From the IMG/VR virus record IMGVR_UViG_2734482570_000015: a DNA stretch of 44,534 nt; one strand, written 5' to 3'. The notes beneath the pieces are model-generated. The model was not told the DNA's origin and did not search any database. It worked only from the letters and a program-made list of their open reading frames with translations. Made by a program: the position numbers and the translations under genes. Source of the stretch: a virus. Taxonomy: Duplodnaviria; Heunggongvirae; Uroviricota; Caudoviricetes. Below are positions 6,360 through 32,776 of this stretch, in pieces. Within the stretch, counting starts at the first letter, position 1. The number at the start of each line of letters is the position of its first letter.

Positions 6360-9300
6360 TTAACATTCCCCCATCACGTCGCATATTTAACAGATTGCCC
6401 TGCACCCGCTGATCAACCATCCCCATAAGTGCTTTTATTGCCTGAGGGCCAATCTCTCCATTCTGGCCGTCATTTTGAATAGTGATTTGGTATACAGGGG
6501 CATAGGTAATATCTCCGCCTCCATTACCACTTTTACTATTAATAGCTCTGACACCAAGAGAACCATCGGAAGTTCGTGTTAATGGCATAATGGCTTCCGG
6601 TCCAGCCTCACCAAAAACACCAGCCCCTTTTGCAAAAGCAAAAAATTGCGGGGAATCATAAATACCGTTCGAATACGTGCTCAATGACGGAGACTCATAA
6701 ACACCGCCCTTTGCATTCGGAATAAATTTACTAATAGCACTCCCGATAGTTCCTAAAATCCCCCCAGAAGAACTGTTACTAATGCTGTCGAAAATCCCAG
6801 TAATTGAAGCCTTTAATGCTATTCGACTAAGATCCGAAATCACGGAAGTAGCGAAAGAACGAAAATTTGCCTTGCCTGTCGTGACAAAATCACCCAGCGC
6901 ATCGGTCATCCCATCAAACATCTGAGTCGTGGTTGATTTTATCTGCTCACTGATATCCTTAGTGTCATCCAGCCAGTTATTGAATCCCTGGGAGGCACCA
7001 CTAACCCAGTCTCCTGCCTGAATATCGAGCTGCTCGTTTTTCTGTCTGACAATTTCTTTTTCCCGTTCCAGAGCATCATTCAGAGCCTGCATTTTCTCTT
7101 GAAAAACATGATCTGACATTCCACGGGATTTATCTGCATAGTCACGTTCAAGTTGCAGACGCTGATTGTTATATCCATGTTCAATCCGCAGTAATTCCTG
7201 CTGGCGTTGCTGATTTTTATCGCCAACCCCATAACCAGCAATCTGAATATCATACCCCTGCTGACGATTATCAATCGAAGCCTGCAATGAATCACGCCAT
7301 GCTGTTATTTCGGCGGATTCCTTGATTAGCCTGTTATTTTTTTCAATCGCAACATTTTTCTCCATCAACGTGGTTATTTCTTCCCGGTGTAAGAGAAGCG
7401 ATTTCTGATCCTGGGTTAATTTCGATGATGGTCGTGACTCTAGGTCGGCAATCCGCTGACGCCACTTAACCAGTTCCTGTTCAGAGGAACTTAATTTAAC
7501 GGTCAACTCAGCTTGTGAACTTAGTAACGCATTCTGTTGATTCAGATGATCAATCATTCGTTGGGCTGCATCATCAGAATAACCTTTCGCCTTTGGTTGC
7601 TTTGGATCTTTATAACGCTCATTTATTTGAGCGATAAGATTATTATATTCTTCCTTTGAATACTGATTCTTTAGCTTTTCCAGTTTTGCAAGTTCACTAG
7701 CTCTCTGCTGCTCCCGGGTCTGATATTGTTTTGAAAAGGCATCTGCTCTCTGTCTGAGTTCAATTCCTTCCTGTTGTCGCTTGTTGTAATCGTTTATTGA
7801 TGAATTTAGTACGTCCTGAGCAATTTTTTCTGCTTGAAGTACGCCCAATTGCTGCTTTAATCGTGCCAGCCTTTTATTTTGAGCTCCGCCATCTCCAATG
7901 CCACCTAACCCGAAAACTCCGGGTCGGGTATTTTTTTCTATTTCATCAATTTGACGGAGAACATCTGAGATTTTTTGATCAAGGGAGGCCTCACGGCCAA
8001 TATCCAGCATGGAATCCCATGCCCATTTTGCGGAGTCTGCGACAGCTTTCCATGCAGTCTCAAGATAACCAAGATTTTCTTTAATCTGGTTGGTGCGCTG
8101 GATCATTGAGGATGAGTATTCTTCTGTCGCAATGCGGGCGGCCTCCTACTGGTTCCCTTCATCCTGTAGCGCCTTAATCTGGTTATAAGTCGCAAGTGTC
8201 AGAAAATGGTACTGATCATTAAGTTTTGATATGGCACTGACAGGATCCTTTGCAATTTCATTGAAGTCATTAACCAGTTGTTCGGTTGATATTCCTGTTA
8301 CTTCGCTCGTTTTTACTATCGCTGTCGTCACTTGCTCCAGCGAACTGCTCGCTACCTTTCCCGAACGCACAAGCTGATTTAATACTGCCGCCGCAGCACC
8401 AGTTGTCGAATCAGCCGCATTCCCGGCACGTTGAGCTATATCGCCCAATTGCCCGCTGGTTGTCCCCAACTGATTTCCGGTAAGAATAAGAGATTTATTA
8501 AATTCGTCCTGCTCCTGAGAGCCTTTATAGTAAGCCAGTCCTAAGACCCCAACGGCTGCTGCGGCCAGGGTAAAAGGATTAATTAATCCCAGCACATAAG
8601 AACCTACACCTTTGATCGCCGGGCCAATCCCACCGAACATATCTTTTAGCTGGCCGCCCTGCTGCATTAACACCATAAATGGCGACTGACCAGTGGACAA
8701 CCCAACAACAATATCCGTCATTTGTACAGGCAACATGCGCATAGCAAAAGCCGTTTGTTTTGCCGACATTCCGGTTTTGCTTAATTGTGATTGAGTAACC
8801 TCAAGCTCACTCCGCATAGCACGAAGTTTTCCAGAAAGCTCCTCATACATTTCAGGAGAAAGCATCCCCTTAGCTTTTGCTTCATTGAGCTGTTTCTGTT
8901 GTTCTACCAGACGATTAAAAGCAGTTCCGACAGGATCAAGTTGAGCAATCAGACGTTGCAAAGCAACAACCTGTTCATCATGCGCTTTTGCTGCTTCTCG
9001 CTCTGCCTGAGCCTCTCCGGTAAGCTCTCGCCGTGTTTCCTGTATTTTTCGGCTATAATTCTCAAACTGAGAACCATTTATTTTCCCGGATGCAAACGCA
9101 GCATTAAGTTCATCATGCTGTTGTTCAAGATTTCTTAGCGCCGCAGCCAGAGGGTCGATCTTGTCCAGCATTCTTTGAAAGGCCTGAGCCTGCGCTTCCT
9201 GCTGGGCGGCAGCAAGTTTTCCGGCCTTCTCGGCTTCTCTCTGCGCTTGCGCAACCCCGCTCAATTCCTCTGTGGTTTCATTAAGTTTACGGACAAGAAA

Positions 9301-9750: not shown

Positions 9751-10520
9751 CTACACACACTGCTCCTGAAAATACTGGTCATCCAGTGCAAAGATCACTG
9801 CTTCAAATTCATCGCGCTCAATCAATACCGGATGAGTGGCTAAATATTCATTTATCTCTGTCAGAGATAAAGGCAAAGGCACCCCAGCCATTCCAGCATA
9901 ACGTCGGGCACGGGATATTACCGAATAGGCGTACAACAACTCCTTAAGCACCGGGTCTATTTCTGGTTCCGGTATCGGTGGCAACCTGAGTTTTTCTCGC
10001 TTCCATCTTGCCTTTTCCCCCCTTTCTCCCCCGAACTCCGATAACCACCGCTGGGCAGCTATGGCTTTTTTATCGTATCCTGCTTCTGCTGCTCTTTACC
10101 CTGGGCGATGCTGGCTGCTTCTGCAAGGATCTGCCAGTACAACTCTGGATTCTGCTTAAGCAGCGCGATCCCTCGTTCTGCCGTATATTCCAGTGCAACC
10201 TCAACACCATTAACCAGTTCACCAACCCCTTTCCAGTCTTTCAGCAGATAACGAGCGGCATTATCAATGAGTAAATCATCAACAGAATCCACCTCGGAAA
10301 CCTTTGAAATATCAAACTCCTTCGTTCCGACGTGCAAACTGGCATCCATTTTCTCAATGTGGCGACGGATTAATGCATTACGGGAGCGATACTGATCGTT
10401 ATCGCTGCTTGCCACCAACAGTTTTAACCCGTCTACAGGTTTTAAGTCCTTCATTGGCGTAAACCAGCGTTCTCCACCAATGATAATTTTCTGATTAAGA
10501 ATAAACATCCATAACCTCAT
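9751..10520 (-). CDS. Tail assembly chaperone G-T fusion made by -1 programmed frameshift
   Basis: The -1 frame is open from the slippery heptamer through ORF 9751-9984 (which the ORF track begins at a TTG): ...KKAIAAQRWLSEFGGERGEKARWKREKLRLPPIPEPE... Confidence 0.65.
10059..10520 (-). CDS. Tail assembly chaperone (gpG-like)
   Basis: 153-aa ORF immediately upstream of the tape measure gene; ends ...KEQQKQDTIKKP with a slippery site two codons before the stop. Confidence 0.75.
   Translation of the reverse strand: MRLWMFILNQKIIIGGERWFTPMKDLKPVDGLKLLVASSDNDQYRSRNALIRRHIEKMDASLHVGTKEFDISKVSEVDSVDDLLIDNAARYLLKDWKGVGELVNGVEVALEYTAERGIALLKQNPELYWQILAEAASIAQGKEQQKQDTIKKP
10065..10071 (-). promoter_or_regulatory. 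-1 ribosomal frameshift slippery heptamer A AAA AAG
   Basis: Minus strand reads gat acg ata aaa aag cca tag; zero-frame codons AAA AAG preceded by A, the canonical X XXY YYZ form, two codons before the G stop. Confidence 0.65.
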
Positions 10521-17940: not shown

Positions 17941-19251
17941 TTAAATCCGAAGTGATGTGACTCTTCCGGTCGGTTTGACAATAGGGAATTGCTTAACGAT
18001 GAAATAACCTCCGGCATCATTCGGGTGATCATTGCCAGATTTTTTATCAGGCTCCCCCTTCTCATCCCAGACCTGTTGCTCCAGAGATTCGGCATATAAC
18101 GGGCAACGCTTCACATTAACTTTATAGCGACGCTCACCATTGGCATTGCAGAACATTGCATTCATTGAGTTAACGCGATCTTTTACTGGCGGGTTCGAGC
18201 TGTTCACCACAACGTTAAAACCAGCCTGCTTAAGCTGGGCTATATCCGTCGTACTTGCGTTACTTGATTTTCTGGAATCCCCGGAAGCATCTGGATAAAT
18301 ATAAATTTCCCTCACTTTCCGGTAATCATTCCCATCATACAGCCAGAAGCGTTCTTTAATGATGCGGATCATATCCGGCGTATCGTAGGCATTGATGATT
18401 TCAGTTACCGCACATGGAAGCCCCAAACGCAGCACATGGACGATTCCCGCCATCTTTCCAACGTTAAAATCCATCCCAATATAAATCGGCTCCCCTGGCT
18501 GCTCCACTTCTTCGCAATTATTCAGTTTCCGGTCAAACTGATGGTAAACAGTACCACTTGTCAGGTTAGTAAACTGTCCTCGAAGATAGGCTTTAATCAG
18601 CTCTGGAGGGTATGATTCAAGAAGCGAAGGAATGTAATCTGCTGGCAGGTTCTTTTCATTATCGAAAGTAGATGCCTGCACCAGACCATACAGTGAGGCC
18701 AGCTCTGTTTTTTCACGCACGGCTTTAACAAACTGCTCGTAGACAAATTTGAATCCTTCCGGCGTGGTTGTAACGTCAATACCGTTGCGAAGTCCATCAA
18801 TCTTATAACGCATACGTGCAATTATCTTGCGCCACGCCGTTCTGGCTTTTTCCTTCGGCAAAATGTCCAGTTCATCCACCAACGCATTACCAATTTTGAA
18901 ACCGACGATCGTTTGTGGCTTCTCCATCGATCTGCAGATAGTGGTTCCCCGATACTGGCGTCCGTAATAAAAGTGAACCTCTTTATTTCCCTCATTAATT
19001 TTTACGTTCAATCCCCAGTCAGCAGCAACTTCTTCCACTGTAGGGTAAAAAATATCGCGAATTTGGGGATACGTTGGCGCAAAATATCCCTGATTTATAC
19101 CTGGATGCTCCCAAATCCCCTTGCATATGCCGCCACACCCAACCCATGTTTTGCCCGAGCCAAAACCAGCAATATAGGCTTTAAATTTATGGGGCATTGA
19201 AAGAAATCGCGCCTGAGGCACATTAAGCGTCGGAGAGATCATCTTCATCAC
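17941..19251 (-). CDS. Terminase large subunit
   Basis: 436 aa with Walker A-like GFGSGKT near the N-terminus and acidic motifs (LVDELD, IGMDFN). Confidence 0.8.
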   Translation of the reverse strand: MMKMISPTLNVPQARFLSMPHKFKAYIAGFGSGKTWVGCGGICKGIWEHPGINQGYFAPTYPQIRDIFYPTVEEVAADWGLNVKINEGNKEVHFYYGRQYRGTTICRSMEKPQTIVGFKIGNALVDELDILPKEKARTAWRKIIARMRYKIDGLRNGIDVTTTPEGFKFVYEQFVKAVREKTELASLYGLVQASTFDNEKNLPADYIPSLLESYPPELIKAYLRGQFTNLTSGTVYHQFDRKLNNCEEVEQPGEPIYIGMDFNVGKMAGIVHVLRLGLPCAVTEIINAYDTPDMIRIIKERFWLYDGNDYRKVREIYIYPDASGDSRKSSNASTTDIAQLKQAGFNVVVNSSNPPVKDRVNSMNAMFCNANGERRYKVNVKRCPLYAESLEQQVWDEKGEPDKKSGNDHPNDAGGYFIVKQFPIVKPTGRVTSLRI

Positions 19252-20317
19252 TCCTTACTCTGGCATCAACCACATTAATATTGATCGCCACAGGCTGGGG
19301 ATGTTCATTATCTTCCACCGTTTCGATCTCTTTGCGCAGCTTCTGGTTTTCCATTCTGCGCCGTTCAATTTCCAGTTCCCGTAGCCGCTTATCTGCACAT
19401 AAAGCCCCGCCAGCAGAAAACAAACGCAACAATTCACGCCGGGCGGCAGCCTTATCCTCCAGCAGGATCTCAACGCCGAATTTTCCGAATTTTGCCCCTG
19501 CATATAATTGCCGCGCATCCCCATCAAGCAGAGTGGTATCAGCCATATAAAGCTGTCCCGTTCCCTCACCGCAGCACTTCGGGCAGTCCGGATTGGGTAT
19601 GGCGTTATCAACAAAGCCGAGGCCTCCATATTCCGGTTCGGGTTTGCCATCTCTGGAAGCCTGCGCCGCTGCCTTGTCGAATTCTGCTATATCGCGCCAC
19701 TGGTAGAGATGATTCTCGCCCCAGCAATAACGGCAGTTAACACGGCGAAATTGTGCAAGCTGATTGGGGTCGGCCAGGACAATAGCCATCAACTGACTCA
19801 CTAGTAAATCCAGGTCTGCGGTATAGCGTTTCTGGTACTGATTGCGGAAGTAGCTGATAGCGCGAAAAACCCTGGCATTTCTAAGCATACGACTGGCGTT
19901 GCTGTTAGCTGTCGCACCTTGCCCCTCATAACCGGCTAGTCGGTACGCCTCTGTCGGCTTTTTACCCTGAGCAACAAGCATCGCAAACTTAGCCTGCTGG
20001 TCAGAAATGCCGAATTCATCGGGACAGAACGAAAATTCCTCCGCGTCGCCCTCATTCAGGCCCGCATCGAATACTGGCTTTTTTTCCTGAGATTTTTCGT
20101 TCCGCTTTTGTGCAGTCTGCGCAGATTTTTTCTGCGCACTTTTTTGCGCAGTTTTGCACATTTCTGTCTGCGCATTTTTCGGAGTTTTTTTGATGTAACG
20201 ACGGGCTGTTGCGTAATTCAGTCCCCTTGCTTCACACCATGCCACCGGAGATATACCGGAGCGGGTGTATTCAGCAATATACTCCTGCTGCAACGCCCCC
20301 CAGTCCGGTCTGCTCAT
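19223..20317 (-). CDS. Terminase small subunit (putative; N-terminal HTH, C-terminal Cys cluster)
   Basis: 364 aa; N-terminal HTH-like segment (GISPVAWCEARGLNYATARRYIKK); overlaps the start of the terminase large subunit gene. Confidence 0.6.
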   Translation of the reverse strand: MSRPDWGALQQEYIAEYTRSGISPVAWCEARGLNYATARRYIKKTPKNAQTEMCKTAQKSAQKKSAQTAQKRNEKSQEKKPVFDAGLNEGDAEEFSFCPDEFGISDQQAKFAMLVAQGKKPTEAYRLAGYEGQGATANSNASRMLRNARVFRAISYFRNQYQKRYTADLDLLVSQLMAIVLADPNQLAQFRRVNCRYCWGENHLYQWRDIAEFDKAAAQASRDGKPEPEYGGLGFVDNAIPNPDCPKCCGEGTGQLYMADTTLLDGDARQLYAGAKFGKFGVEILLEDKAAARRELLRLFSAGGALCADKRLRELEIERRRMENQKLRKEIETVEDNEHPQPVAININVVDARVRSDEDDLSDA

Positions 20318-20320
20318 CAG

Positions 20321-20572
20321 TTAGTCCTGATTTTTATCCACCCTGAGTAGTTCGCGCAGAGCAAAGGCATCCCCTTTTCTGGCAAGCTTAAACAATGCCG
20401 CTCGTAACTCGGCTTCACCTTTCGCTCTGCCCTTACGGATGGCCGCATAAAAATCTGTCATTGCTTCCCGATTTTCTTTCAGTCGGTTCAGATCAACATC
20501 CAGAACGTCAGCGATTTGTTGTGCAGTCATCCGGCACGCTGCCAGAGACTCGACTTTCGAATACGGAATCAT
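20321..20572 (-). CDS. Small hypothetical DNA-binding-like protein
   Basis: 83-aa ORF (possibly starting at the internal MTAQQIADVLDV) just upstream of the terminase small subunit gene. Confidence 0.4.
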   Translation of the reverse strand: MIPYSKVESLAACRMTAQQIADVLDVDLNRLKENREAMTDFYAAIRKGRAKGEAELRAALFKLARKGDAFALRELLRVDKNQD

Positions 20573-21440
20573 TTGTCACCCCCATTGATATGCAGGGTGT
20601 CTTCTTCCTGTATTTTTCGTGAAGGATTTTTACTGCAGCGTTGTTCCAGGTGACCTGATGGTGAATGCGTTTATGACTGGCACCCATAAGTGAGATTTTT
20701 ACGCACGACGGCGCATACATGACGGAGTAAAAACTTTTAACGTAGGTTCCGGAATCCAGATACAGCTCGGTCATTCCGCCGCTGTTTTTCTGCGTCTGTT
20801 TCTGCCCTAACTGGACAGCACCGATCGTCATAAACAATTCACCACAGCGACCGAGATTCGTGTACGTATTCACATCCTCGTTAATGCGCCCCATGAATGA
20901 GAACGGTCGATCAACCGAACAGATAAAGCTGTTCATTGCCTTGCGTTTCACCCACGAAGCATGGCCGCCATTGTCACCAAGAAAATCCCCGCCCTGCGAC
21001 ATAGCGATGGAAAGAGCAGGTATTGATTCGTAGTACGCAAGCATTTCAGAAAGGATCTCATCCAGTTTCCTTATCGGGAAATAGGCCTGGTCATAGTTGC
21101 GATCCACCCGAAACTGGAACTCGTGATAATCATCATCGAGCTGAATGAAGTATTTACACCCGACCAGTTTTGCCTGGTCGAAACAGGCATTACGGGCGTA
21201 AAAAATTGAGCGGCGGTCACTAAAATTATCGGCTTCGTCAAAACGACTAGCAATATCGGCTTTGGAAAATACCAGCACCTGTTCACCAAATTCAGCCATG
21301 TACTGATGCCGTGTCTTATCTTCATCATCAACAACGATAAAAATTTTCCCGGTATAGCCAGCACGACGCAACGTCCGGTAAGTCAGAACTTTGTCCGGTC
21401 GCCCGTGAGTCAGAATAAAGGCGCAAAAATCATCACGCAT
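20508..21440 (-). CDS. GT-A-like nucleotide-sugar glycosyltransferase-like protein (putative; function unknown)
   Basis: 310 aa from the ATG with a GGAGGAGGA Shine-Dalgarno sequence. N-terminal FILTHGRPDKV...IFIVVDDED and a DxD-type motif YFIQLDDDYHEF. Start overlaps the ParB-like gene stop by 8 nt. Confidence 0.5.
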   Translation of the reverse strand: MRDDFCAFILTHGRPDKVLTYRTLRRAGYTGKIFIVVDDEDKTRHQYMAEFGEQVLVFSKADIASRFDEADNFSDRRSIFYARNACFDQAKLVGCKYFIQLDDDYHEFQFRVDRNYDQAYFPIRKLDEILSEMLAYYESIPALSIAMSQGGDFLGDNGGHASWVKRKAMNSFICSVDRPFSFMGRINEDVNTYTNLGRCGELFMTIGAVQLGQKQTQKNSGGMTELYLDSGTYVKSFYSVMYAPSCVKISLMGASHKRIHHQVTWNNAAVKILHEKYRKKTPCISMGVTNDSVFESRVSGSVPDDCTTNR

Positions 21441-22221
21441 ATTCCTCCTCCCCGCCATGCATGATCTCCACCATGCGCTGCGTCATTCGGACAAATCCAT
21501 TTTCAATAGCCTGCTGATAATCAATGATCACCAGCGCCGACTCCTCGAAAAGGCACTGAATTTCAGCGGGGGCATGAGCGTAATAGTCCGCAATTCTGCT
21601 GAAATTAAACACCGTGTGACGTTCTGCTGCACACAGGAGGAATTTCTCAATATCAGGATCAAGGGACGCCGAACGTATCCGGCTGATCAGCTCCTGAGTT
21701 TTCGTATCGTCGTACAGTTCACTGATATCCGGTTTACCGCCTGACGGCTCATAAACAGGCGTATCAATTTTCGTCGTATACGGCTCCTCCTCATTTCCTG
21801 TACCGGGCAAAACATCCGTCAACAGTTCATCAATTTCTGCCGGGATGAAGCCTGTCAGGGAGACATCAAAATCAGCATTGATTAGGTCCGACAGCTCCAT
21901 CCGCAACAGATCTTCATCCCAGCCAGCATTCATCGGCAGGCGATTATCTGCCAGGCGGTACGCCTTTTTCTGCTCATCCGTCAGGCCAGACAGAACAATG
22001 ACCGGAACAGAATCCATTTTGAGCATTTCAGCCGCCATAACACGACCGTGACCCGCAATAATTTCGCCCTTTTCGTCAATCAGCACCGGATTAGTCCAGC
22101 CGAATTGCTTAATACTTTCTACCAGTTGTGCCACCTGCTCAGTACTGTGCGTCCTGGCGTTGTGCGCATACGGTGACAATTCTTGTAATGGGCGATAGAC
22201 TATCTTTAATTTCTCGCTCAT
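21433..22221 (-). CDS. ParB-like N-terminal (ParB/Srx) nuclease domain protein
   Basis: 262 aa with ParB-N-like signature (YAHNARTHSTEQVAQLVESIKQFGWTNPVLIDEKGEIIAGHGRVMAA...AYRLADNRL). From memory, the K-12 Rac ynaK fragment is this family. Confidence 0.65.
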   Translation of the reverse strand: MSEKLKIVYRPLQELSPYAHNARTHSTEQVAQLVESIKQFGWTNPVLIDEKGEIIAGHGRVMAAEMLKMDSVPVIVLSGLTDEQKKAYRLADNRLPMNAGWDEDLLRMELSDLINADFDVSLTGFIPAEIDELLTDVLPGTGNEEEPYTTKIDTPVYEPSGGKPDISELYDDTKTQELISRIRSASLDPDIEKFLLCAAERHTVFNFSRIADYYAHAPAEIQCLFEESALVIIDYQQAIENGFVRMTQRMVEIMHGGEEEYA

Positions 22222-22248: not shown

Positions 22249-22272
22249 CCCCAGCAGCCAGTGCTACTGGGG
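22249..22272 (-). terminator. Possible terminator downstream of trkG
   Basis: Inverted repeat CCCCAG...CTGGGG followed on the minus strand by tgcgTTTTATT; the U-tract is offset, so weak. Confidence 0.35.
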
Positions 22273-22358: not shown

Positions 22359-23816
22359 TTAGGAGCGCCAAAAAAAACCTGAAAACAATATAATAACAGG
22401 ATAAATTTCAAGGCGACCAAGAATCATAGCTATGCACATTAAATATTTTGCAATGTCATTAAGCACTCCGAATGACGATGCAGTAGCCCCAAAACCTAAT
22501 CCCATATTATTAATACATGCAGCCACTGTTGCAAATGATGTAAGAAAATCATATCCCATACCATTTAACACCAGTATAAAAAACACCGTGAAGAGAGTAT
22601 AAAGAAAAAAGAAACTCCATACAGACCTCATTACACGATCTGTAACTATCTTCCCTCCTACATTTACACTCAACAACGCTCTGGGATGAGAAAGCTGATT
22701 TATCTCGTGTTTGCTTTGTTTGAAAAGTATAAGAAATCGAAGTGACTTAATTCCACCACAGGTTGAACCTATACATCCCCCAAAGAAACTTGACAACAGC
22801 AAAAACACTATCGTGTGCGTGGGCCAGTTTGCATAATCCTGCGTAGCTAAACCATTATCAGTGAGCATGGAGCTGGCAAGAAAAAACGAATGAATAAAAC
22901 TTCCATGCAAGTCATACATACCTATATGCCAGACCTGGAAAGAGGTAACAATGATCACCCCTAAGGCTATTAACAGAAAGAAACGAAGTTCAATATCTCT
23001 GATTAAAGGTTTTATCGTTTTTCTGCTAATAACAATATACCAAAGAGTGAAGTTGAAAGCCGATAGCAGGGAAAAAGAACCAGCCACCAGCTCAACCAAA
23101 TAGTTATTAAAATATCCGATACTCTCGCTATGAGTTGAGAAACCACCAAGCGAAACTGTGGAAATCCCGTGACAAATAGCATCAAACAAAGGCATTCCTG
23201 CAAGTCTATAACAGACAATACAAGCAATACCTAATAAAGAATAAGTTATCCACAGTGTCCGTGACGTATCGGCCAGGCGGGGAGTGAGTTTGTCATCCTT
23301 AAATGGCCCCGGCATTTCTGACTGATAAAGCTTTGCACCACCAATACCCAATAATGGCAATACTGCAACCGCCAGAACAATAACTCCTAAACCACCTATA
23401 AAATTTAACTGTGACCGATAGTACAAATATGCCCGAGGTAATGAACTAACATCATCAATTACAGTTGCTCCTGTTGTTGTTATTCCAGAAACCCCTTCAA
23501 ACAGAGCATCAATGAACGTTAAATTAAGTTCTGAGTCAATCCATAAAGGGAATGCACTAATAACAGAAAACAAAATCCAAAACATTACAATTATAATAAA
23601 CCCATCACGGGTACGTAATTGAATGCCAGATTTCTTAGTTGTATACCACGCTCCGCCACCAATGCAAAAAAATATAACGAAAGTTATAAAGAAAACGAAC
23701 AGGCTTTTTTCTTTATAAAACAATGCTACAACCATTGGTGGCAACATTGAAAGACTATAGAGCCAAACCAGGAACCCACACATATGAGTAACAACTCTTA
23801 CATGAGATGTATTCAT
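22359..23816 (-). CDS. trkG: TrkG potassium uptake protein (TrkH/TrkG family); low-GC moron inside the late region
   Basis: 485 aa from MNTSHVRVVTHMCGFLVWLY; multi-pass membrane protein. trkG is a known Rac prophage gene in K-12. Gene and upstream region are visibly AT-rich. Confidence 0.85.
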   Translation of the reverse strand: MNTSHVRVVTHMCGFLVWLYSLSMLPPMVVALFYKEKSLFVFFITFVIFFCIGGGAWYTTKKSGIQLRTRDGFIIIVMFWILFSVISAFPLWIDSELNLTFIDALFEGVSGITTTGATVIDDVSSLPRAYLYYRSQLNFIGGLGVIVLAVAVLPLLGIGGAKLYQSEMPGPFKDDKLTPRLADTSRTLWITYSLLGIACIVCYRLAGMPLFDAICHGISTVSLGGFSTHSESIGYFNNYLVELVAGSFSLLSAFNFTLWYIVISRKTIKPLIRDIELRFFLLIALGVIIVTSFQVWHIGMYDLHGSFIHSFFLASSMLTDNGLATQDYANWPTHTIVFLLLSSFFGGCIGSTCGGIKSLRFLILFKQSKHEINQLSHPRALLSVNVGGKIVTDRVMRSVWSFFFLYTLFTVFFILVLNGMGYDFLTSFATVAACINNMGLGFGATASSFGVLNDIAKYLMCIAMILGRLEIYPVIILFSGFFWRS

Positions 23817-23953
23817 ATCTAAATATTCTTTCAATTATAACCACCTTGCTGCAATATTATGATTATACTGTATAAAATTTAACTCCTCTTAGATCTTACT
23901 TCACTGTTCCTTATGAAACAATCATCAAAATGAATCATATTGTAGTTAAGATT

Positions 23954-25378: not shown

Positions 25379-25774
25379 CTAACCTCGCATGTCAAAGCCA
25401 GATTTCTGAAAATCTCTGTAGACTTCCGGATTGTTGAAGGCCGGAAATTTGGCTTTATGAGCTGCGGACTTTATCGCTTCGCAATAGGCTTTATCACCGT
25501 TACTGGTAGATATTTTTAACGCCGTGCCATCCTGAGAGAATTCCATATGCAACCTGCATTTTTTCCCTTTCCAGTTATGCGGCTCATCAAGTTTGGCATT
25601 AATTGCAGCTCTGATTCCCCGCGCTTGCGCCCCCCATTCATCCTGATCATCCCAGCGTCCTGAACTGCAACTACCTGTAGCAGTAGTTTTGTGGCAATCT
25701 GAAGGGTGTAAAGGTGTGCATCCCGCAACAAAACCGACCCAAAAAGTCAACATAACGATTTTCTTTAATCCCAC
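25379..25774 (-). CDS. Lipoprotein with TolA domain-III-like C-terminal domain (paralog 1)
   Basis: 131 aa; signal peptide plus lipobox (MLTFWVGFVAGC). C-terminus GKKCRLHMEFSQDGTALKISTSNGDKAYCEAIKSAAHKAKFPAFNNPEVYRDFQKSGFDMRG resembles the TolA C-terminal domain as recalled. Confidence 0.6.
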   Translation of the reverse strand: MGLKKIVMLTFWVGFVAGCTPLHPSDCHKTTATGSCSSGRWDDQDEWGAQARGIRAAINAKLDEPHNWKGKKCRLHMEFSQDGTALKISTSNGDKAYCEAIKSAAHKAKFPAFNNPEVYRDFQKSGFDMRG

Positions 25775-25924: not shown

Positions 25925-26353
25925 TCAGGGTTTAAAATCCAGCACCCCATTTTGAAATACTTTATATACTTCCGGCGAAGGGGGGGCAGGTATATCAGCA
26001 TTCTTTATCGCATTCATCGCTTCACGACATAAATCGAGGTCTCCACTTTCTCTTTTAACCTCCAGTAGAAGGCCATTCGGGGCCATATGCATTCTCAGTG
26101 TACACTCTTTTCCTGAATACTTACTCGCATCCCCGAACTGTTTTTCGATGGCGCTCTTGATTTGATGGGCATACAGACGGATATCCTCACTAACATCAGA
26201 AGTACGTTCAGATGAACTCACATACTGTGTCTCTATTGCTTTATCGGAGTAATATGATGTACGGTCATGATAATTTGTCGATACAGCATCAGTGCACCCG
26301 ATAATAATCCCACTAATAATCAACGTAAGAATTGATGCGCTACGAAAACCCAT
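25925..26353 (-). CDS. Lipoprotein with TolA domain-III-like C-terminal domain (paralog 2)
   Basis: 142 aa; lipobox IIIGC. C-terminus YAHQIKSAIEKQFGDASKYSGKECTLRMHMAPNGLLLEVKRESGDLDLCREAMNAIKNADIPAPPSPEVYKVFQNGVLDFKP is close to the E. coli TolA C-terminus as recalled (...AGQIKSAIESKF...GKTCTLRIKLAPDGMLLDIKPEGGD...PPSQAVYEVFKNAPLDFKP). Confidence 0.7.
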   Translation of the reverse strand: MGFRSASILTLIISGIIIGCTDAVSTNYHDRTSYYSDKAIETQYVSSSERTSDVSEDIRLYAHQIKSAIEKQFGDASKYSGKECTLRMHMAPNGLLLEVKRESGDLDLCREAMNAIKNADIPAPPSPEVYKVFQNGVLDFKP

Positions 26354-27397: not shown

Positions 27398-27940
27398 TCA
27401 AGCCATTTTCTCAGCAAATGATTCACGCATGGGAATATATAGGGCATACTCAGCAACAGCTAACCAATTAGCAATCCGTTTTTCGCATGTGCTAAAACAC
27501 CACTCTGGGTGTGCATCATTTAGCAATTCAGCCATTTTGCGCTTAGTCATCCCCCGCCCTTCATAGCGTTGCCGGAGAATGCAAATCAATCCTGGATGCT
27601 CTGCCAGCACCTCACTTATGACTCGATCAATACATAACGCCTCTGCATCAGTACAATGCGCCAGCCAGCTCTTTTGCTTGCCGTTGATCATCTCTCGCAA
27701 AAACGCTTCCAGCTCAGCTTTCTCTATTCCCGCTTTTTTCATTCTGCGCAGGGCTTCATTAATGGCTGTTTTCGTCAGTTTTTTGGATGCCAACAACTGA
27801 TTGAACATATTCCCTGACCTGCCACCGCCAATATACGACCAGCGCCCCCACATACGTAGTTTTCCCTGAATCCAGACACTTTCCAGCGTGGTGAGGCGAA
27901 GGTGTTCTCCGCTTTTTCCTGTATTCGTTGGGTAAATCAT
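27398..27940 (-). CDS. Late-gene antiterminator Q (putative)
   Basis: 180-aa ORF directly upstream of the tR'-like terminator and late genes, downstream of the Nin-region genes; RLTTLESVWIQGKLRMWGRWS segment is reminiscent of the Q antiterminator family (from memory). Confidence 0.6.
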   Translation of the reverse strand: MIYPTNTGKSGEHLRLTTLESVWIQGKLRMWGRWSYIGGGRSGNMFNQLLASKKLTKTAINEALRRMKKAGIEKAELEAFLREMINGKQKSWLAHCTDAEALCIDRVISEVLAEHPGLICILRQRYEGRGMTKRKMAELLNDAHPEWCFSTCEKRIANWLAVAEYALYIPMRESFAEKMA

Positions 27941-30598: not shown

Positions 30599-31600
30599 TT
30601 AGTAATCTGCGTGTTTCGCACTTTTCAGAAATGCTTTCATATTTTCATTAGGTCGCTCAATTTCGAAGTTACTTCCATATAACTCTTGTAATTTTGGCCA
30701 TAACTTACTTAATAACCCTCTCCTGCGATAAAATGGATGTATCCAAACGGTAGATAGGTACGGAGAATTTGCATTTGAATTGTTTATTGTGACCAGCCCA
30801 ACTAAACATTGTCGATAACCACTATTATCCATTGATTGTATTTCTTCGACGAATGGATACGCGATTACATCAGTCCAACCATGATCGGTTGTATCCCATT
30901 GCATTCCGTCATGACATTCCTTCGACTGATAGCGGCGTAAAGCTACACACGCGAGCTTTTGCCAATCTGGAGAATTAATTGTGATCTCTTCATCGTATGA
31001 CGCGCCTATTGGAGCGGGTATTGGTCTGATTAATCCAGCATGGCATTCATCATAGAACTTCATGTTTCCCTCAGAAACGTTGTGTACGTTGGGTTGCTCC
31101 ATGTGTGCGCCATTCAAAAATAGCTCTGATAGTAGTGTATCTACACTGTAATCTTTATTGATTATTGTCGGCTTAGAGTTTTTCTTATTAAGGCCGCGAG
31201 TAACGATTTTTTGATCAATGTTAACAACATGGAATAATCCGTCGGGGAGGCTAGCGAACCACGATGGGGCATCGGACCAGAATAGCATGCCTTTTGTACT
31301 TCTTAAGAGTTTAATTAAGTTAATACAAGCTTCTTCACTAGTCTTGCCGTTGATGCGAAGTATGTTAGGACTAAAGTAATATTCATCCATATCAGGGAAT
31401 GCAGCTTCGCAAAACTCCTGTACATAATTTAGCACCTGGATTCTACAGAGATCATCATAGCTGGTAATAACTAAGGGGGTATCTTCATTACTATTATGAT
31501 TATCAATAATGCAATCTATAGCGAGACTTACTGCTTTGCGTATCACTTCAGTTGAATCTAACGACTCTAAAAATTTTGTCTTTCGTGTGCGAATATCCAT
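30599..31600 (-). CDS. Hypothetical protein (333 aa) with GNAT-like C-terminal region; downstream gene of the low-GC cassette
   Basis: C-terminal segment ...YRQCLVGLVTINNSNANSPYLSTVWIHPFYRRRGLLSKLWPKLQEL resembles the GNAT acetyl-CoA-binding region (h-x-P-x-Y-R-x-x-G); N-terminal 200 aa unassigned; AT-rich coding sequence. Confidence 0.6.
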   Translation of the reverse strand: MDIRTRKTKFLESLDSTEVIRKAVSLAIDCIIDNHNSNEDTPLVITSYDDLCRIQVLNYVQEFCEAAFPDMDEYYFSPNILRINGKTSEEACINLIKLLRSTKGMLFWSDAPSWFASLPDGLFHVVNIDQKIVTRGLNKKNSKPTIINKDYSVDTLLSELFLNGAHMEQPNVHNVSEGNMKFYDECHAGLIRPIPAPIGASYDEEITINSPDWQKLACVALRRYQSKECHDGMQWDTTDHGWTDVIAYPFVEEIQSMDNSGYRQCLVGLVTINNSNANSPYLSTVWIHPFYRRRGLLSKLWPKLQELYGSNFEIERPNENMKAFLKSAKHADY

Positions 31601-31615
31601 GTATGACCTGCGCTA

Positions 31616-32638
31616 TTAAAATTCATGAATGAACGGTTTGTCATCTGGTTGCAAAATGGTGGTTTTATTCGTTGCTACATTTAAACTGTTGTAGAGCATA
31701 ATTGCCAGGTTCGATGCATTTTCAATCAGCGTTTCAAGATCCTGGTCTGTAATCACTACGAGGTTCCCTTCTTTATCCTTTCCACCACGATGCACTAAGT
31801 GATTTCGATTGAGGGTTGCCAATTCAATAGCTTCTATCGGACAGTCTTTTTGTACTTTTATATCGAATGTAGCTTCATAGCGGTCGATTACCTTTTTAGT
31901 GCTATGCCAGCTTGCACTGATCAAGTGTTCCTTGATTGACCTGATTAGCTCTCCCCTAATTTTCTCGATGGGTTCACCCTTGAAAGGCAACGCAGCAATA
32001 TCTTTGCTTACTTTAAATTCAGTCTTACCTTTTTCTATACAATTGGCTATGTAGACATCATCTTTCTCTATAGAATTAATGAATAGCTCAACATAAAGCG
32101 TTTCCAAAGCTGTAATAACATTCGTGTAGAGCAAACTAAGCAAGTGGTTTTTTTGCTGTTGTTCAGTTTTATCTTTTGCAAGTTTTTTTATTTTATCGAT
32201 ATTATCAATGAATTTTAAATACGGATTACCGGAAGACGTTACAGCGTCGTAGATATCATCATCGTACCAATCATCTATATTATTTGAGTTTCCAGACCAG
32301 TCAAAACATTGTGTTTGTAATTCATCTACTAATTCCTCAATATACTCAGATTTAACATATTGACCGAAGATGGATTGTAGTTCTTCGCTCGCATCATACG
32401 GCCCGCCATATATGTAAGCATAGCCACCTTCTCTACTTTCATACGGACAAGCATTTGCCGGATCTTCAAAGTTTTCAAAGAACCAGTTTTTCATTACTTC
32501 GAGTTGATCTTTTTTGCTTATGTATTTTAAAGATTTTAGTGGAACTTTCTTTCCATTAACCTCGAAAACAATTTTCACGATGTAACGCTCCCTTGTATCA
32601 ATTGCGCAACTATTATACCACAGCGAAATACAGGGCAT
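31616..32638 (-). CDS. Hypothetical protein (340 aa) with C-terminal R-x4-H HEPN-like motif; upstream gene of the low-GC cassette
   Basis: Start ATG has an AAGGAGG Shine-Dalgarno sequence 6 nt upstream. C-terminal region contains ATLNRNHLVHRGG (R-N-x-x-x-H). Gene is AT-rich; 15-bp spacer to the downstream gene. Confidence 0.6.
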   Translation of the reverse strand: MPCISLWYNSCAIDTRERYIVKIVFEVNGKKVPLKSLKYISKKDQLEVMKNWFFENFEDPANACPYESREGGYAYIYGGPYDASEELQSIFGQYVKSEYIEELVDELQTQCFDWSGNSNNIDDWYDDDIYDAVTSSGNPYLKFIDNIDKIKKLAKDKTEQQQKNHLLSLLYTNVITALETLYVELFINSIEKDDVYIANCIEKGKTEFKVSKDIAALPFKGEPIEKIRGELIRSIKEHLISASWHSTKKVIDRYEATFDIKVQKDCPIEAIELATLNRNHLVHRGGKDKEGNLVVITDQDLETLIENASNLAIMLYNSLNVATNKTTILQPDDKPFIHEF

Positions 32639-32776
32639 AACCTGCCTCCTTAAACTAACATACCATGAGCCAGCAATGTCCGCTATTGGCACAAAGCGGA
32701 CAACCACGCTAGCTCTCCCCTGTGCCAGAAAAATGTCAATTTACATATGAACTAATGCTCTTTGATCTAGTAACGT

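What the first reader, a model, noticed from the sequence alone, without database searches (positions are those of the whole stretch)
20508..22221. ParB-like nuclease-domain protein coupled to a GT-A-like glycosyltransferase-like protein at the head of the packaging module
The 262-aa protein has a clear ParB N-terminal-type signature (AGHGR...AYRLADNRL). Its stop overlaps by 8 nt the start of a 310-aa protein that has a strong Shine-Dalgarno sequence, an N-terminal segment typical of GT-A folds (FILTHGRPDKV...IFIVVDDED) and a DxD-type motif (QLDDDYHEF). ParB-like domains in phages commonly travel with DNA-modifying enzymes. A ParB-like plus glycosyltransferase-like pair next to the terminase suggests DNA modification or an anti-restriction role. 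From memory, the K-12 Rac fragments ynaK and ydaY appear to be remnants of this pair, so the intact genes here let the function be tested.
Basis: partly seen in the sequence, partly recalled or inferred. Interest (0 to 1): 0.6.

Follow-up and report, generated by a model that had tools for sequence, protein, structure and literature searches.

The report
ParB-coupled orphan DNA glycosyltransferase module
A Rac-type E. coli prophage carries, just ahead of its DNA-packaging genes, a sugar-transferring enzyme of the phage DNA-glycosylating family. It is always paired with a small partner protein (here fused to a ParB-type nucleotide switch), and nothing nearby makes the modified base such enzymes normally need.

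Summary
On the minus strand, a 262-aa ParB/Srx-fold protein (21433-22221) is translationally coupled to a 310-aa GT-A glycosyltransferase (20508-21440). The coupling is an 8-nt overlap plus a GGAGGAGG Shine-Dalgarno. The glycosyltransferase belongs to Pfam TAGT (PF20691), the family of the T2/T6 second glucosyltransferase and of TET-linked phage DNA glycosyltransferases. PGAP already names the pair "GREB1-related protein" and "ynaK ParB/Srx". About 16% of complete E. coli genomes carry it.

Two findings are new here.
- **Obligate partner.** The conserved partner of this TAGT clade is not the ParB domain. It is the unannotated C-terminal domain of the "ParB" protein (aa ~147-255). That domain sits directly upstream of the TAGT in 50 of 53 loci from many bacterial phyla and an archaeal virus, with or without the ParB domain.
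- **No acceptor source.** No TET/JBP enzyme or hydroxymethylase recurs near the pair, so the acceptor is unknown.

K-12 ynaK is the 5' third of the ParB gene. ydaY is an unrelated tail-region gene, not a glycosyltransferase remnant.

Best reading: a two-subunit, late-expressed DNA glycosyltransferase. This is inferred; no biochemistry exists. Novelty: a new variant of a known kind. Interest is moderate.

The parts
21433..22221 (-). ynaK-type partner gene, 262 aa. Layout: ParB/Srx nucleotide-binding domain, short helical segment, disordered acidic linker, conserved C-terminal glycosyltransferase-partner domain.
21922..22221 (-). ParB/Srx nucleotide-binding domain (aa 1-100). It carries an invariant G57-H58-G59-R60 (GxxR P-motif) and D92-N93.
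   Evidence: Invariant columns in alignment A2. PDB profile hits to Noc and ParB at 1.6e-5. The PADLOC MTase_II model (ParB-methyltransferase fusions) matches aa 10-144 at 1.5e-38.
21457..21783 (-). C-terminal partner domain (aa ~147-255). Motif Y[TS]xKIxxPxYxP is followed by a helical core, FLxxAAxRHxxF..IAxYYA..QxLMExSALVIID..AIxG. No Pfam family covers it.
   Evidence: An HMM of this domain hits the gene directly upstream of the TAGT in 50 of 53 loci at E 1e-29 to 1e-68. Cross-phylum alignment. No Pfam match. 1195 representative clusters. Only stand-alone or ParB_N-fused architectures.
20508..21440 (-). TAGT-family GT-A glycosyltransferase, 310 aa. PGAP names it 'GREB1-related protein'.
21129..21137 (-). 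Codons for the invariant D102-D103-D104 (DxD/DDD motif, GATGATGAT).
   Evidence: Sequence. Invariant in 20 homologues at 59-82% identity.
21433..21451 (-). Translational coupling signal: the 8-nt overlap ATGCGTGA (21433-21440) and the Shine-Dalgarno run GGAGGAGG (21444-21451).
   Evidence: Overlapping partner-TAGT gene pairs recur in unrelated phages.
22249..22272 (-). Intrinsic-terminator-like hairpin (10-bp stem, 7 GC, T-run) after the trkG moron, 28 nt upstream of the ParB start. No promoter-like site lies between it and the gene.
   Evidence: That the pair is transcribed by read-through of the late, Q-antiterminated operon is inferred. A Q-like gene lies at 27398-27940.
20321..20572 (-). 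83-aa ORF (69 aa as called by PGAP) that overlaps the 3' end of the glycosyltransferase gene. It resembles part of small-terminase PHROG 309.
   Evidence: An 82-aa gene occupies the same position in a Yersinia prophage.
17941..20317 (-). Small (19223-20317) and large (17941-19251) terminase subunits, directly downstream.
   Evidence: Pfam Terminase_2, Terminase_6N and Terminase_6C. PHROG 51.

Best explanation
The two genes encode a two-subunit, post-replicative DNA glycosyltransferase made late in infection, together with the packaging machinery.

- **Catalytic subunit.** It is a GT-A enzyme of the TAGT family. It would transfer a sugar from a nucleotide-sugar donor, bound by the R14 / D102-D104 / E188-D189 motifs.
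- **Partner.** It is an obligate subunit. Its conserved C-terminal domain would bind, and probably dimerise or complete, the glycosyltransferase. In the E. coli version its N-terminal ParB/Srx nucleotide-binding domain would add an NTP-gated way of holding the enzyme on double-stranded DNA. The analogy is to ParB-like activators of phage thymine dioxygenases and to the ParB modules fused to phage DNA methyltransferases.
- **Expected outcome.** Glycosylated virion DNA that resists restriction or other nucleases in the next host.

**Shown here:** family and fold of both proteins, conserved active-site motifs, strict genetic coupling, DNA-centred gene contexts, and absence of a recognisable hydroxymethylase.

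**Inferred:** physical complex, DNA as substrate, timing, protective role.

**Unknown:** sugar donor and acceptor atom.
For: - **Family activity.** Within the TAGT family, the T2/T6 enzyme extends glucosyl-hydroxymethylcytosine in DNA (PMC13216743, PMC13390438).
- **Coupling.** In 50 of 53 loci the gene directly upstream of the TAGT start carries the C-domain. In one more (L125) the C-domain gene sits one gene further upstream. The other two loci are cut off at the TAGT. Spans: Proteobacteria, Bacteroidota, Firmicutes, Veillonella, Desulfovibrionaceae, Saccharibacteria, Kiritimatiellae. All 28 phage records with the C-domain also have the TAGT, including haloarchaeal virus HHTV-2. Three stand-alone C-domain proteins looked up all sit beside TAGT genes.
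- **DNA context.** Terminase-family hits dominate the 150 nearest co-directional neighbours (within 2.8 kb), e.g. Terminase_6N in 14 proteins; blastp clusters place the two main terminase-sized families downstream in 15 and 11 loci. The rest lie in replication modules beside DNA polymerase A, primase-helicase and sliding clamp.
- **Sugar-pathway accessories.** Some loci have tandem TAGTs, a TAGT-methyltransferase fusion, NAD-dependent sugar epimerases or a cytidylyltransferase.
- **Precedent.** ParB-like proteins with the same NBD, short helices, disordered linker and CTD layout, and no DNA-binding domain, activate phage thymine dioxygenases on dsDNA (PMC13229309).
Against: - No biochemical or genetic data exist for this clade.
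- The acceptor used by the T2/T6 member and by the TET-linked pathways described in the cited papers (a 5-hydroxymethyl-pyrimidine or a sugar already attached to one) has no recognisable source. This holds for this prophage, for the complete 31.8-kb genome of Lactobacillus phage c5, and recurrently near the 50 diverse loci.
- PGAP names this protein 'GREB1-related'. From my own knowledge, not checked here, GREB1 is reported to glycosylate a protein, so DNA is not the only possible substrate class.
- The C-terminal third of the glycosyltransferase and the partner's C-domain were modelled with low confidence. The proposed interface is therefore not supported by structure.
- In the thymine-dioxygenase system, mutating the ParB NTP-binding residues did not abolish activation. 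NTP gating is therefore uncertain even in the precedent.
Confidence: 0.55

Rival explanations
1. It is a protein glycosyltransferase, not a DNA one. The enzyme would glycosylate the partner itself, on the invariant Tyr or Thr/Ser of the Y[TS]xKIxxPxYxP motif, or a packaging or virion protein.
Against: Every GT-A query returns glycogenin-like hits, so that match is not specific. The partner's N-domain is the module fused to DNA methyltransferases. The stand-alone form sits inside replication gene clusters next to DNA polymerase and clamp. The TAGT member with an assigned activity in the papers read (T2/T6) acts on DNA.
Confidence: 0.15
2. It is a conventional hydroxymethyl-pyrimidine glycosyltransferase whose acceptor comes from elsewhere. 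The source could be an unrecognised hydroxylase in the phage or host. Alternatively, the enzyme could act on the hydroxymethylcytosine DNA of superinfecting T-even-like phages.
For: It belongs to the same Pfam family as the T2/T6 and TET-linked enzymes. Thousands of phage dioxygenase-like contigs escape the TET/JBP Pfam model (PMC13229309). MazG genes lie a few kb away in two of the larger phages; that this hints at nucleotide-pool editing is inference.
Against: Clustering of 53 loci found no third conserved gene. Phage c5 (50 genes, complete genome) and this prophage show no candidate. A position in the late operon behind a terminator argues against expression from the lysogen to act on incoming phage. 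The module also occurs in Lactobacillus and haloarchaeal viruses.
Confidence: 0.15
3. The ParB-like protein is a partition or packaging-nuclease protein, and the glycosyltransferase is an unrelated cargo gene such as a surface-polysaccharide modifier. On this view the adjacency is incidental.
For: Database names read 'chromosome (plasmid) partitioning protein' and 'ParB-like nuclease'. Morons such as trkG do sit at this position.
Against: No HTH or parS-binding domain is detected; TIGR00180 scores 38 bits against a cut-off of 58. No ParA is annotated in the prophage. The pairing, with overlapping reading frames, holds in 50 of 53 loci across phyla and in 28 of 28 phage records. The glycosyltransferase matched no family other than TAGT in Pfam.
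Confidence: 0.03

Closest known systems
T2/T6 beta-glucosyl-HMC-alpha-glucosyltransferase and TET/5mYOX-associated phage GT-A glycosyltransferases (Pfam TAGT, PF20691; relatives include kinetoplastid base-J glucosyltransferase and GREB1)
   Same: Same Pfam family and PHROG. GT-A fold. Conserved R / DDD / ED motifs. Phage-encoded and found in DNA-metabolism or packaging neighbourhoods.
   Different: No alpha- or beta-glucosyltransferase, TET/5mYOX enzyme or thymidylate-synthase-type hydroxymethylase accompanies it. It has an obligate small partner protein, which the papers read here do not report for the T-even enzymes. It is too diverged from T-even members for tblastn: none appears among 36 phage records at E<=1e-5. 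The third motif residue is Val, not Tyr or Phe.
ParB-like activators of phage thymine dioxygenases (5mYOX-associated ParB, e.g. ParB176; PMC13229309)
   Same: Same layout: ParB nucleotide-binding domain, short helical segment, long disordered linker, C-terminal domain. No DNA-binding HTH. Encoded next to a post-replicative DNA-modifying enzyme, often near terminase genes.
   Different: The client enzyme here is a glycosyltransferase, not a dioxygenase. Whether the C-terminal domains are homologous was not tested, because no ParB176 sequence was available. Here the C-domain alone often suffices genetically, without the ParB domain. In the dioxygenase system both domains were required.
ParB-domain / DNA methyltransferase fusions of phages, prophages and plasmids (PHROG 498; PADLOC MTase_II)
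   Same: The first ~140 residues match these proteins strongly, at 6e-51 and 1.5e-38. They are reported as strongly enriched in prophage regions (PMC12704722).
   Different: There is no methyltransferase domain. The enzyme is a separate polypeptide, recruited (inferred) through a dedicated C-terminal domain instead of being fused.
Canonical partition ParB / Noc / KorB CTPase clamps
   Same: ParB/Srx fold and the GxxR phosphate-binding motif.
   Different: No HTH, no parS and no ParA. The match to TIGR00180 is below threshold. It sits in a late or packaging operon of an integrated prophage.

Membership tests
TAGT (PF20691) GT-A DNA glycosyltransferases | Match to the family profile above the curated threshold | tested here: met
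   118.9 bits against a cut-off of 27.5, covering aa 8-222 of the protein and positions 4-205 of the 205-position model. PHROG 842 at 7.5e-104.
TAGT (PF20691) GT-A DNA glycosyltransferases | GT-A (single Rossmann-like) fold | tested here: met
TAGT (PF20691) GT-A DNA glycosyltransferases | Active-site motifs R...DDD...ED[Y/F] (Pyle et al., bioRxiv 10.1101/2023.12.21.572611) | tested here: inconclusive
   R14, D102-D104 and D189 are invariant and E188 is nearly invariant. The third residue is V190, not Y or F. Equivalence of positions was judged from sequence order only, not by superposition on JGT.
TAGT (PF20691) GT-A DNA glycosyltransferases | Genomic association with an enzyme that makes the acceptor (TET/5mYOX, dCMP/dUMP hydroxymethylase, or a primary alpha/beta-glucosyltransferase) | tested here: not met
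   None in the prophage. None in complete phage c5. None recurrent among neighbours of ~50 loci. Only Pfam-recognisable enzymes could be excluded.
TAGT (PF20691) GT-A DNA glycosyltransferases | Sugar transfer to DNA | not testable with these tools
   Needs nucleoside LC-MS or in-vitro assays.
ParB/Srx (ParB-CTPase fold) superfamily | ParB_N profile match and fold | tested here: met
ParB/Srx (ParB-CTPase fold) superfamily | GxxR phosphate-binding motif (Box II) and the Box III Asn | tested here: met
   G57, G59, R60, D92 and N93 are invariant, and H58 is nearly invariant, in 20 homologues. Nucleotide binding itself was not tested.
Partition ParB (ParABS) | HTH DNA-binding domain, parS site, ParA partner | tested here: not met
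   TIGR00180 scores 38.1 bits against a cut-off of 58.45 and covers only the N-domain. No HTH family was found. No ParA is annotated in the prophage. It is not a partition ParB.
Enzyme-activating phage ParB (5mYOX-associated type, PMC13229309) | NBD, helix-helix, disordered linker, CTD layout without a DNA-binding domain, encoded beside a DNA-modifying enzyme | tested here: met
   The model shows the NBD at 1-100, helices at 103-134, a low-confidence linker at 137-158 and a helical C-domain at 172-255. The gene overlaps the glycosyltransferase gene.
Enzyme-activating phage ParB (5mYOX-associated type, PMC13229309) | Partner enzyme is a thymine dioxygenase that needs the ParB for activity on dsDNA | tested here: not met
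   The partner is a glycosyltransferase and no dioxygenase is present. Dependence on the partner cannot be tested here.
ParB-DNA methyltransferase fusions | Methyltransferase catalytic domain in the same polypeptide | tested here: not met
   Only the first ~141-144 residues match PHROG 498 and PADLOC MTase_II. No methyltransferase Pfam hit.

The most novel reading that the evidence does not exclude
The partner-TAGT pair is self-sufficient and glycosylates ordinary DNA that has not been hydroxymethylated. The target could be an exocyclic amine of a purine or cytosine, or another position of a canonical (or merely methylated) base. The ParB-type switch and C-domain would hold the enzyme on double-stranded phage DNA before packaging. 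That would be a new chemical class of DNA modification. It would be widespread in temperate phages of gut and environmental bacteria and in an archaeal virus, and testable in E. coli.
Probability: 0.25. Interest if true: 0.85.

Novelty: new variant of a known kind. Interest (0 to 1): 0.55.

Why it matters
Two recent surveys leave an open question. About 65% of roughly 25,000 phage glycosyltransferase contigs have no 5mYOX or thymidylate-synthase-type neighbour. In addition, 288 of 753 phage genomes encoding these glycosyltransferases (α-GT, β-GT or TAGT) carry a "solitary" TAGT of unknown role.

This prophage places one such orphan in E. coli, in a compact two-gene unit with a clear partner. 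K-12 is a natural deletion control: it retains only the first 85 codons of the partner gene.

Showing what the pair modifies would do one of two things. It would either reveal a hidden route to hydroxymethyl-pyrimidines or reveal a new kind of DNA glycosylation.

The strict coupling to an unannotated ~110-residue domain, with or without ParB, also offers a handle on how ParB-like proteins were repurposed as accessory subunits of DNA-modifying enzymes. Practically, the modification could affect restriction, CRISPR and type IV defence outcomes for a prophage family present in about one in six complete E. coli genomes.

Tried and rejected
- **Hidden hydroxymethylase or TET in the window.** I scanned nine unannotated or poorly annotated ORFs against Pfam and four against PADLOC. 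Nothing relevant appeared, only weak GNAT and HEPN/RES-NTD hints.
- **A third conserved gene.** All-against-all clustering of ORFs from 53 loci found only the partner, terminases, a small downstream protein and portals. A Pfam census of the 150 nearest neighbours agreed. Families hit by a single protein were not listed, so a rare TET cannot be excluded.
- **Rosetta-stone fusion of partner and glycosyltransferase.** None was found among the listed hits, where the C-domain lies at or near the C-terminus in almost all.
- **First viral-contig scan.** It returned almost only near-identical E. coli prophages and added little. The one-genome-per-species collection was the informative one.
- **Literature.** Iyer et al. 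2013 (NAR) and the published Cell Reports version of Pyle et al. are not in the held library. I used the preprint instead. No held paper characterises a ParB-TAGT pair lacking TET.
- **Partition function.** Rejected; see the membership test.
- **ydaY as glycosyltransferase remnant.** Rejected.
Full report
**1. What is in the sequence**

Both genes lie on the minus strand.
- A 262-aa ORF spans 21433-22221. A 310-aa ORF spans 20508-21440; an upstream in-frame ATG at 21458 would give 316 aa.
- The first gene's TGA (21433-21435) and the second gene's ATG (21438-21440) overlap as ATGCGTGA. GGAGGAGG lies 3 nt upstream of the ATG. The 8-nt overlap and strong Shine-Dalgarno are therefore real.
- Downstream come an 83-aa ORF (20321-20572), the small terminase (19223-20317) and the large terminase (17941-19251).
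- Upstream lie the trkG moron (22359-23834) and the lysis cassette.
- A strong terminator-like hairpin (22249-22272) follows trkG, 28 nt before the ParB start. No promoter-like site intervenes. I infer that the pair is expressed as part of the late, Q-antiterminated transcript. A Q-like gene lies at 27398-27940.

**2. Provenance and the K-12 link**

- The window is a Rac-type E. coli prophage. It is 99.8% identical over 35 kb to strain EC2.
- The 2-kb region matches 1600 of 5426 complete E. coli genomes, and 867 carry at least 80% of it. PGAP labels the genes "GREB1-related protein" and "ynaK: ParB/Srx family N-terminal domain-containing protein".
- Aligning K-12 Rac to the window shows a deletion joining window 21968 to 10410.
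- K-12 YnaK (87 aa) equals residues 1-85 of the ParB-like protein, 85 of 86 identical.
- K-12 YdaY is 116/116 identical to a window ORF at 10059-10418(-). That ORF lies between the tail-tube and tape-measure genes, has no Pfam match, and is not similar to the glycosyltransferase.
The glycosyltransferase gene is entirely absent from K-12.

**3. The glycosyltransferase**

- The protein matches Pfam TAGT (PF20691) at 3.7e-34 and PHROG 842 at 7.5e-104.
- In 20 homologues at 59-82% identity, R14, D102-D103-D104, N187, D189 and V190 are invariant and E188 is nearly invariant. [quoted passage not shown]
- TAGT is the family of the T2/T6 enzyme that adds a second glucose to glucosyl-hydroxymethylcytosine.

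**4. The ParB-like protein**

- It is not a partition ParB. There is no HTH, the TIGR00180 match is below threshold, and no ParA is annotated.
- Its first ~140 residues are nearly the same module that is fused to DNA methyltransferases in phages: PHROG 498 at 6e-51 and PADLOC MTase_II at 1.5e-38.
- Beyond a short helical segment and a disordered acidic linker lies a strongly conserved C-terminal domain with no Pfam family.

**5. The main new result: the partner is the C-domain**

- A scan of one genome per species found 49 loci with TAGT homologues at 39-99% identity. Apart from the enterobacterial loci, they are at 39-59% identity and span Bacteroidota, Firmicutes, Veillonella, Desulfovibrionaceae, Chlorobi, Saccharibacteria, Kiritimatiellae and others.
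- I built separate HMMs for the N- and C-halves of the window protein. In 50 of 53 loci (these 49 plus four metagenomic or genomic contexts), the gene directly upstream of the TAGT, usually overlapping its start, carries the C-domain at E 1e-29 to 1e-68. In one more locus (L125) the C-domain gene lies one gene further upstream, ahead of a first TAGT. The remaining two loci are cut off at the TAGT.
- In about eight loci the upstream gene is only ~130 aa, with the C-domain alone. In six more the N-terminal ~150 residues are not recognisably ParB.
- A profile of the C-domain retrieves over 6800 proteins and 1195 representative clusters. The hits inspected were stand-alone (~130 aa), ParB_N-fused (~250 aa), or carried N-terminal regions with no Pfam match.
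- Among isolated phages, all 28 records with the C-domain are among the 36 with this TAGT clade. They include Lactobacillus phages c5 and phi jlb1, 191-kb Vibrio phages, Nocardia phage NTR1 and the haloarchaeal virus HHTV-2.
- Three stand-alone C-domain proteins looked up independently all sit beside TAGT genes.
- The cross-phylum alignment shows an invariant Y..K...P.Y.P peptide followed by FL..AA.RH..F...IA.YYA...Q.LME.SALVIID..AI.G.

**6. Context**

- Terminase families dominate the 150 nearest co-directional neighbours (within 2.8 kb), and five different terminase-family groups are represented. Blastp clustering places the two main terminase-sized families downstream in 15 and 11 loci. The module therefore moves between unrelated packaging systems.
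- In phage c5 the pair is ORF1/ORF2, immediately after cos.
- The stand-alone-C-domain form sits instead in replication clusters next to DNA polymerase A, primase-helicase, sliding clamp and ligase.
- Some loci have two TAGTs in tandem, a TAGT fused to a methyltransferase, sugar epimerases/dehydratases or a cytidylyltransferase. These point to nucleotide-sugar chemistry and to glycan elaboration.
- No third gene is conserved.
- No TET/JBP or thymidylate-synthase-like enzyme was found in the window, in complete phage c5, or recurrently near the loci.

**7. Mechanism**

*Shown:* a GT-A TAGT enzyme with intact motifs; a ParB/Srx domain with an intact phosphate-binding motif; strict, translationally coupled pairing with a dedicated C-domain; exclusively DNA-centred neighbourhoods.

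*Inferred:*
- The two proteins form a complex through the C-domain. This domain may co-fold with the conserved but poorly modelled glycosyltransferase C-terminus, aa 216-280.
- The ParB domain adds NTP-dependent engagement with dsDNA.
- The enzyme glycosylates replicated phage DNA before or during packaging, and the modification protects DNA in the next host.

The precedent is the ParB-like activator of phage thymine dioxygenases. It has the same domain layout, lacks a DNA-binding domain, and is required specifically on dsDNA (PMC13229309).

The weak point is the acceptor. Without a hydroxymethyl-pyrimidine source there are three possibilities: the enzyme attacks a canonical base (novel), an unrecognised hydroxylase exists, or the substrate is a protein.

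**8. Comparison and novelty**

- Family assignments are already in public annotation (Pfam TAGT; PGAP "GREB1-related"). The general ParB / DNA-modification association has been noted in the literature.
- I found no description in the held literature of the obligate C-domain partner, of its independence from the ParB domain, or of this TET-less clade as a self-contained two-gene module reaching from E. coli to a haloarchaeal virus.
- I rate it a new variant of a known kind, with moderate interest. Its main value is a tractable E. coli system for the open "orphan TAGT" question.

Noticed in passing
window 10410 and 21968 (deletion endpoints relative to K-12): K-12 Rac differs from this intact prophage by an 11.6-kb deletion. 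It removes the last two thirds of the ParB-like gene, the glycosyltransferase, both terminases, portal, head and head-tail genes and the tail tube. The first three codons of K-12 ydaY differ from the window ORF, and its start lies 8 nt before the deletion junction.
   Followed up: yes
window 22359-23834 (-) and 22249-22272 (-): trkG (K+ transporter) sits as a moron between the lysis cassette and the ParB gene, with its own strong terminator-like hairpin. In a Yersinia prophage the same slot holds other cargo.
   Followed up: partly
L005 2180-3332: In a Yersinia enterocolitica prophage, the moron slot just upstream of the ParB-TAGT pair encodes a heat-labile-enterotoxin-like pair. The A subunit hits Enterotoxin_a and Scabin-like; the B subunit hits LT-IIB. 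A second, otherwise similar locus (L006) lacks them.
   Followed up: no
window 30599-31600 (-) and 31616-32707 (-): Two adjacent ORFs of 333 and 363 aa with only weak Pfam hints (GNAT at 9e-4; HEPN/RES N-terminal domain at 1.9e-4) lie between the replication and Nin-like regions. They may be a defence or moron pair. The first is frameshifted in strain EC2.
   Followed up: partly
window 25379-25774 (-) and 25925-26353 (-): Phage-encoded TolA C-terminal-domain proteins lie upstream of the lysis genes. One is annotated as a truncated tolA in strain EC2. No function was examined.
   Followed up: no
window 20321-20572 (-): An 83-aa ORF overlaps the glycosyltransferase 3' end by 65 nt (23 nt with PGAP's start). 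It matches only an internal part of small-terminase PHROG 309. The E. coli glycosyltransferase has a ~20-30-residue C-terminal extension that is absent from homologues and coincides with this overlap.
   Followed up: partly
L125 3581-5275; L130 571-2004; L135 5178-6882; L140-L142: Some loci carry two TAGT genes in series, one of them fused to a class I methyltransferase domain. In two loci (L130, L111) a stand-alone C-domain gene precedes the second TAGT. L142 adds a cytidylyltransferase. This suggests multi-step glycan building.
   Followed up: partly
window ~6939-6947 versus L001 5873-6640: Strain EC2 has an IS1 inserted in the tape-measure gene, and its tape-measure and tail-tube genes are annotated as disrupted or frameshifted. 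The window lacks the IS1.
   Followed up: no
PMC12924614 (K-12 ynaK): An overexpression screen reported that the 87-aa YnaK fragment, the truncated ParB nucleotide-binding domain, raised MICs of six antibiotics 3- to 6-fold. No mechanism is known. The fragment lacks Box III and the C-domain.
   Followed up: no
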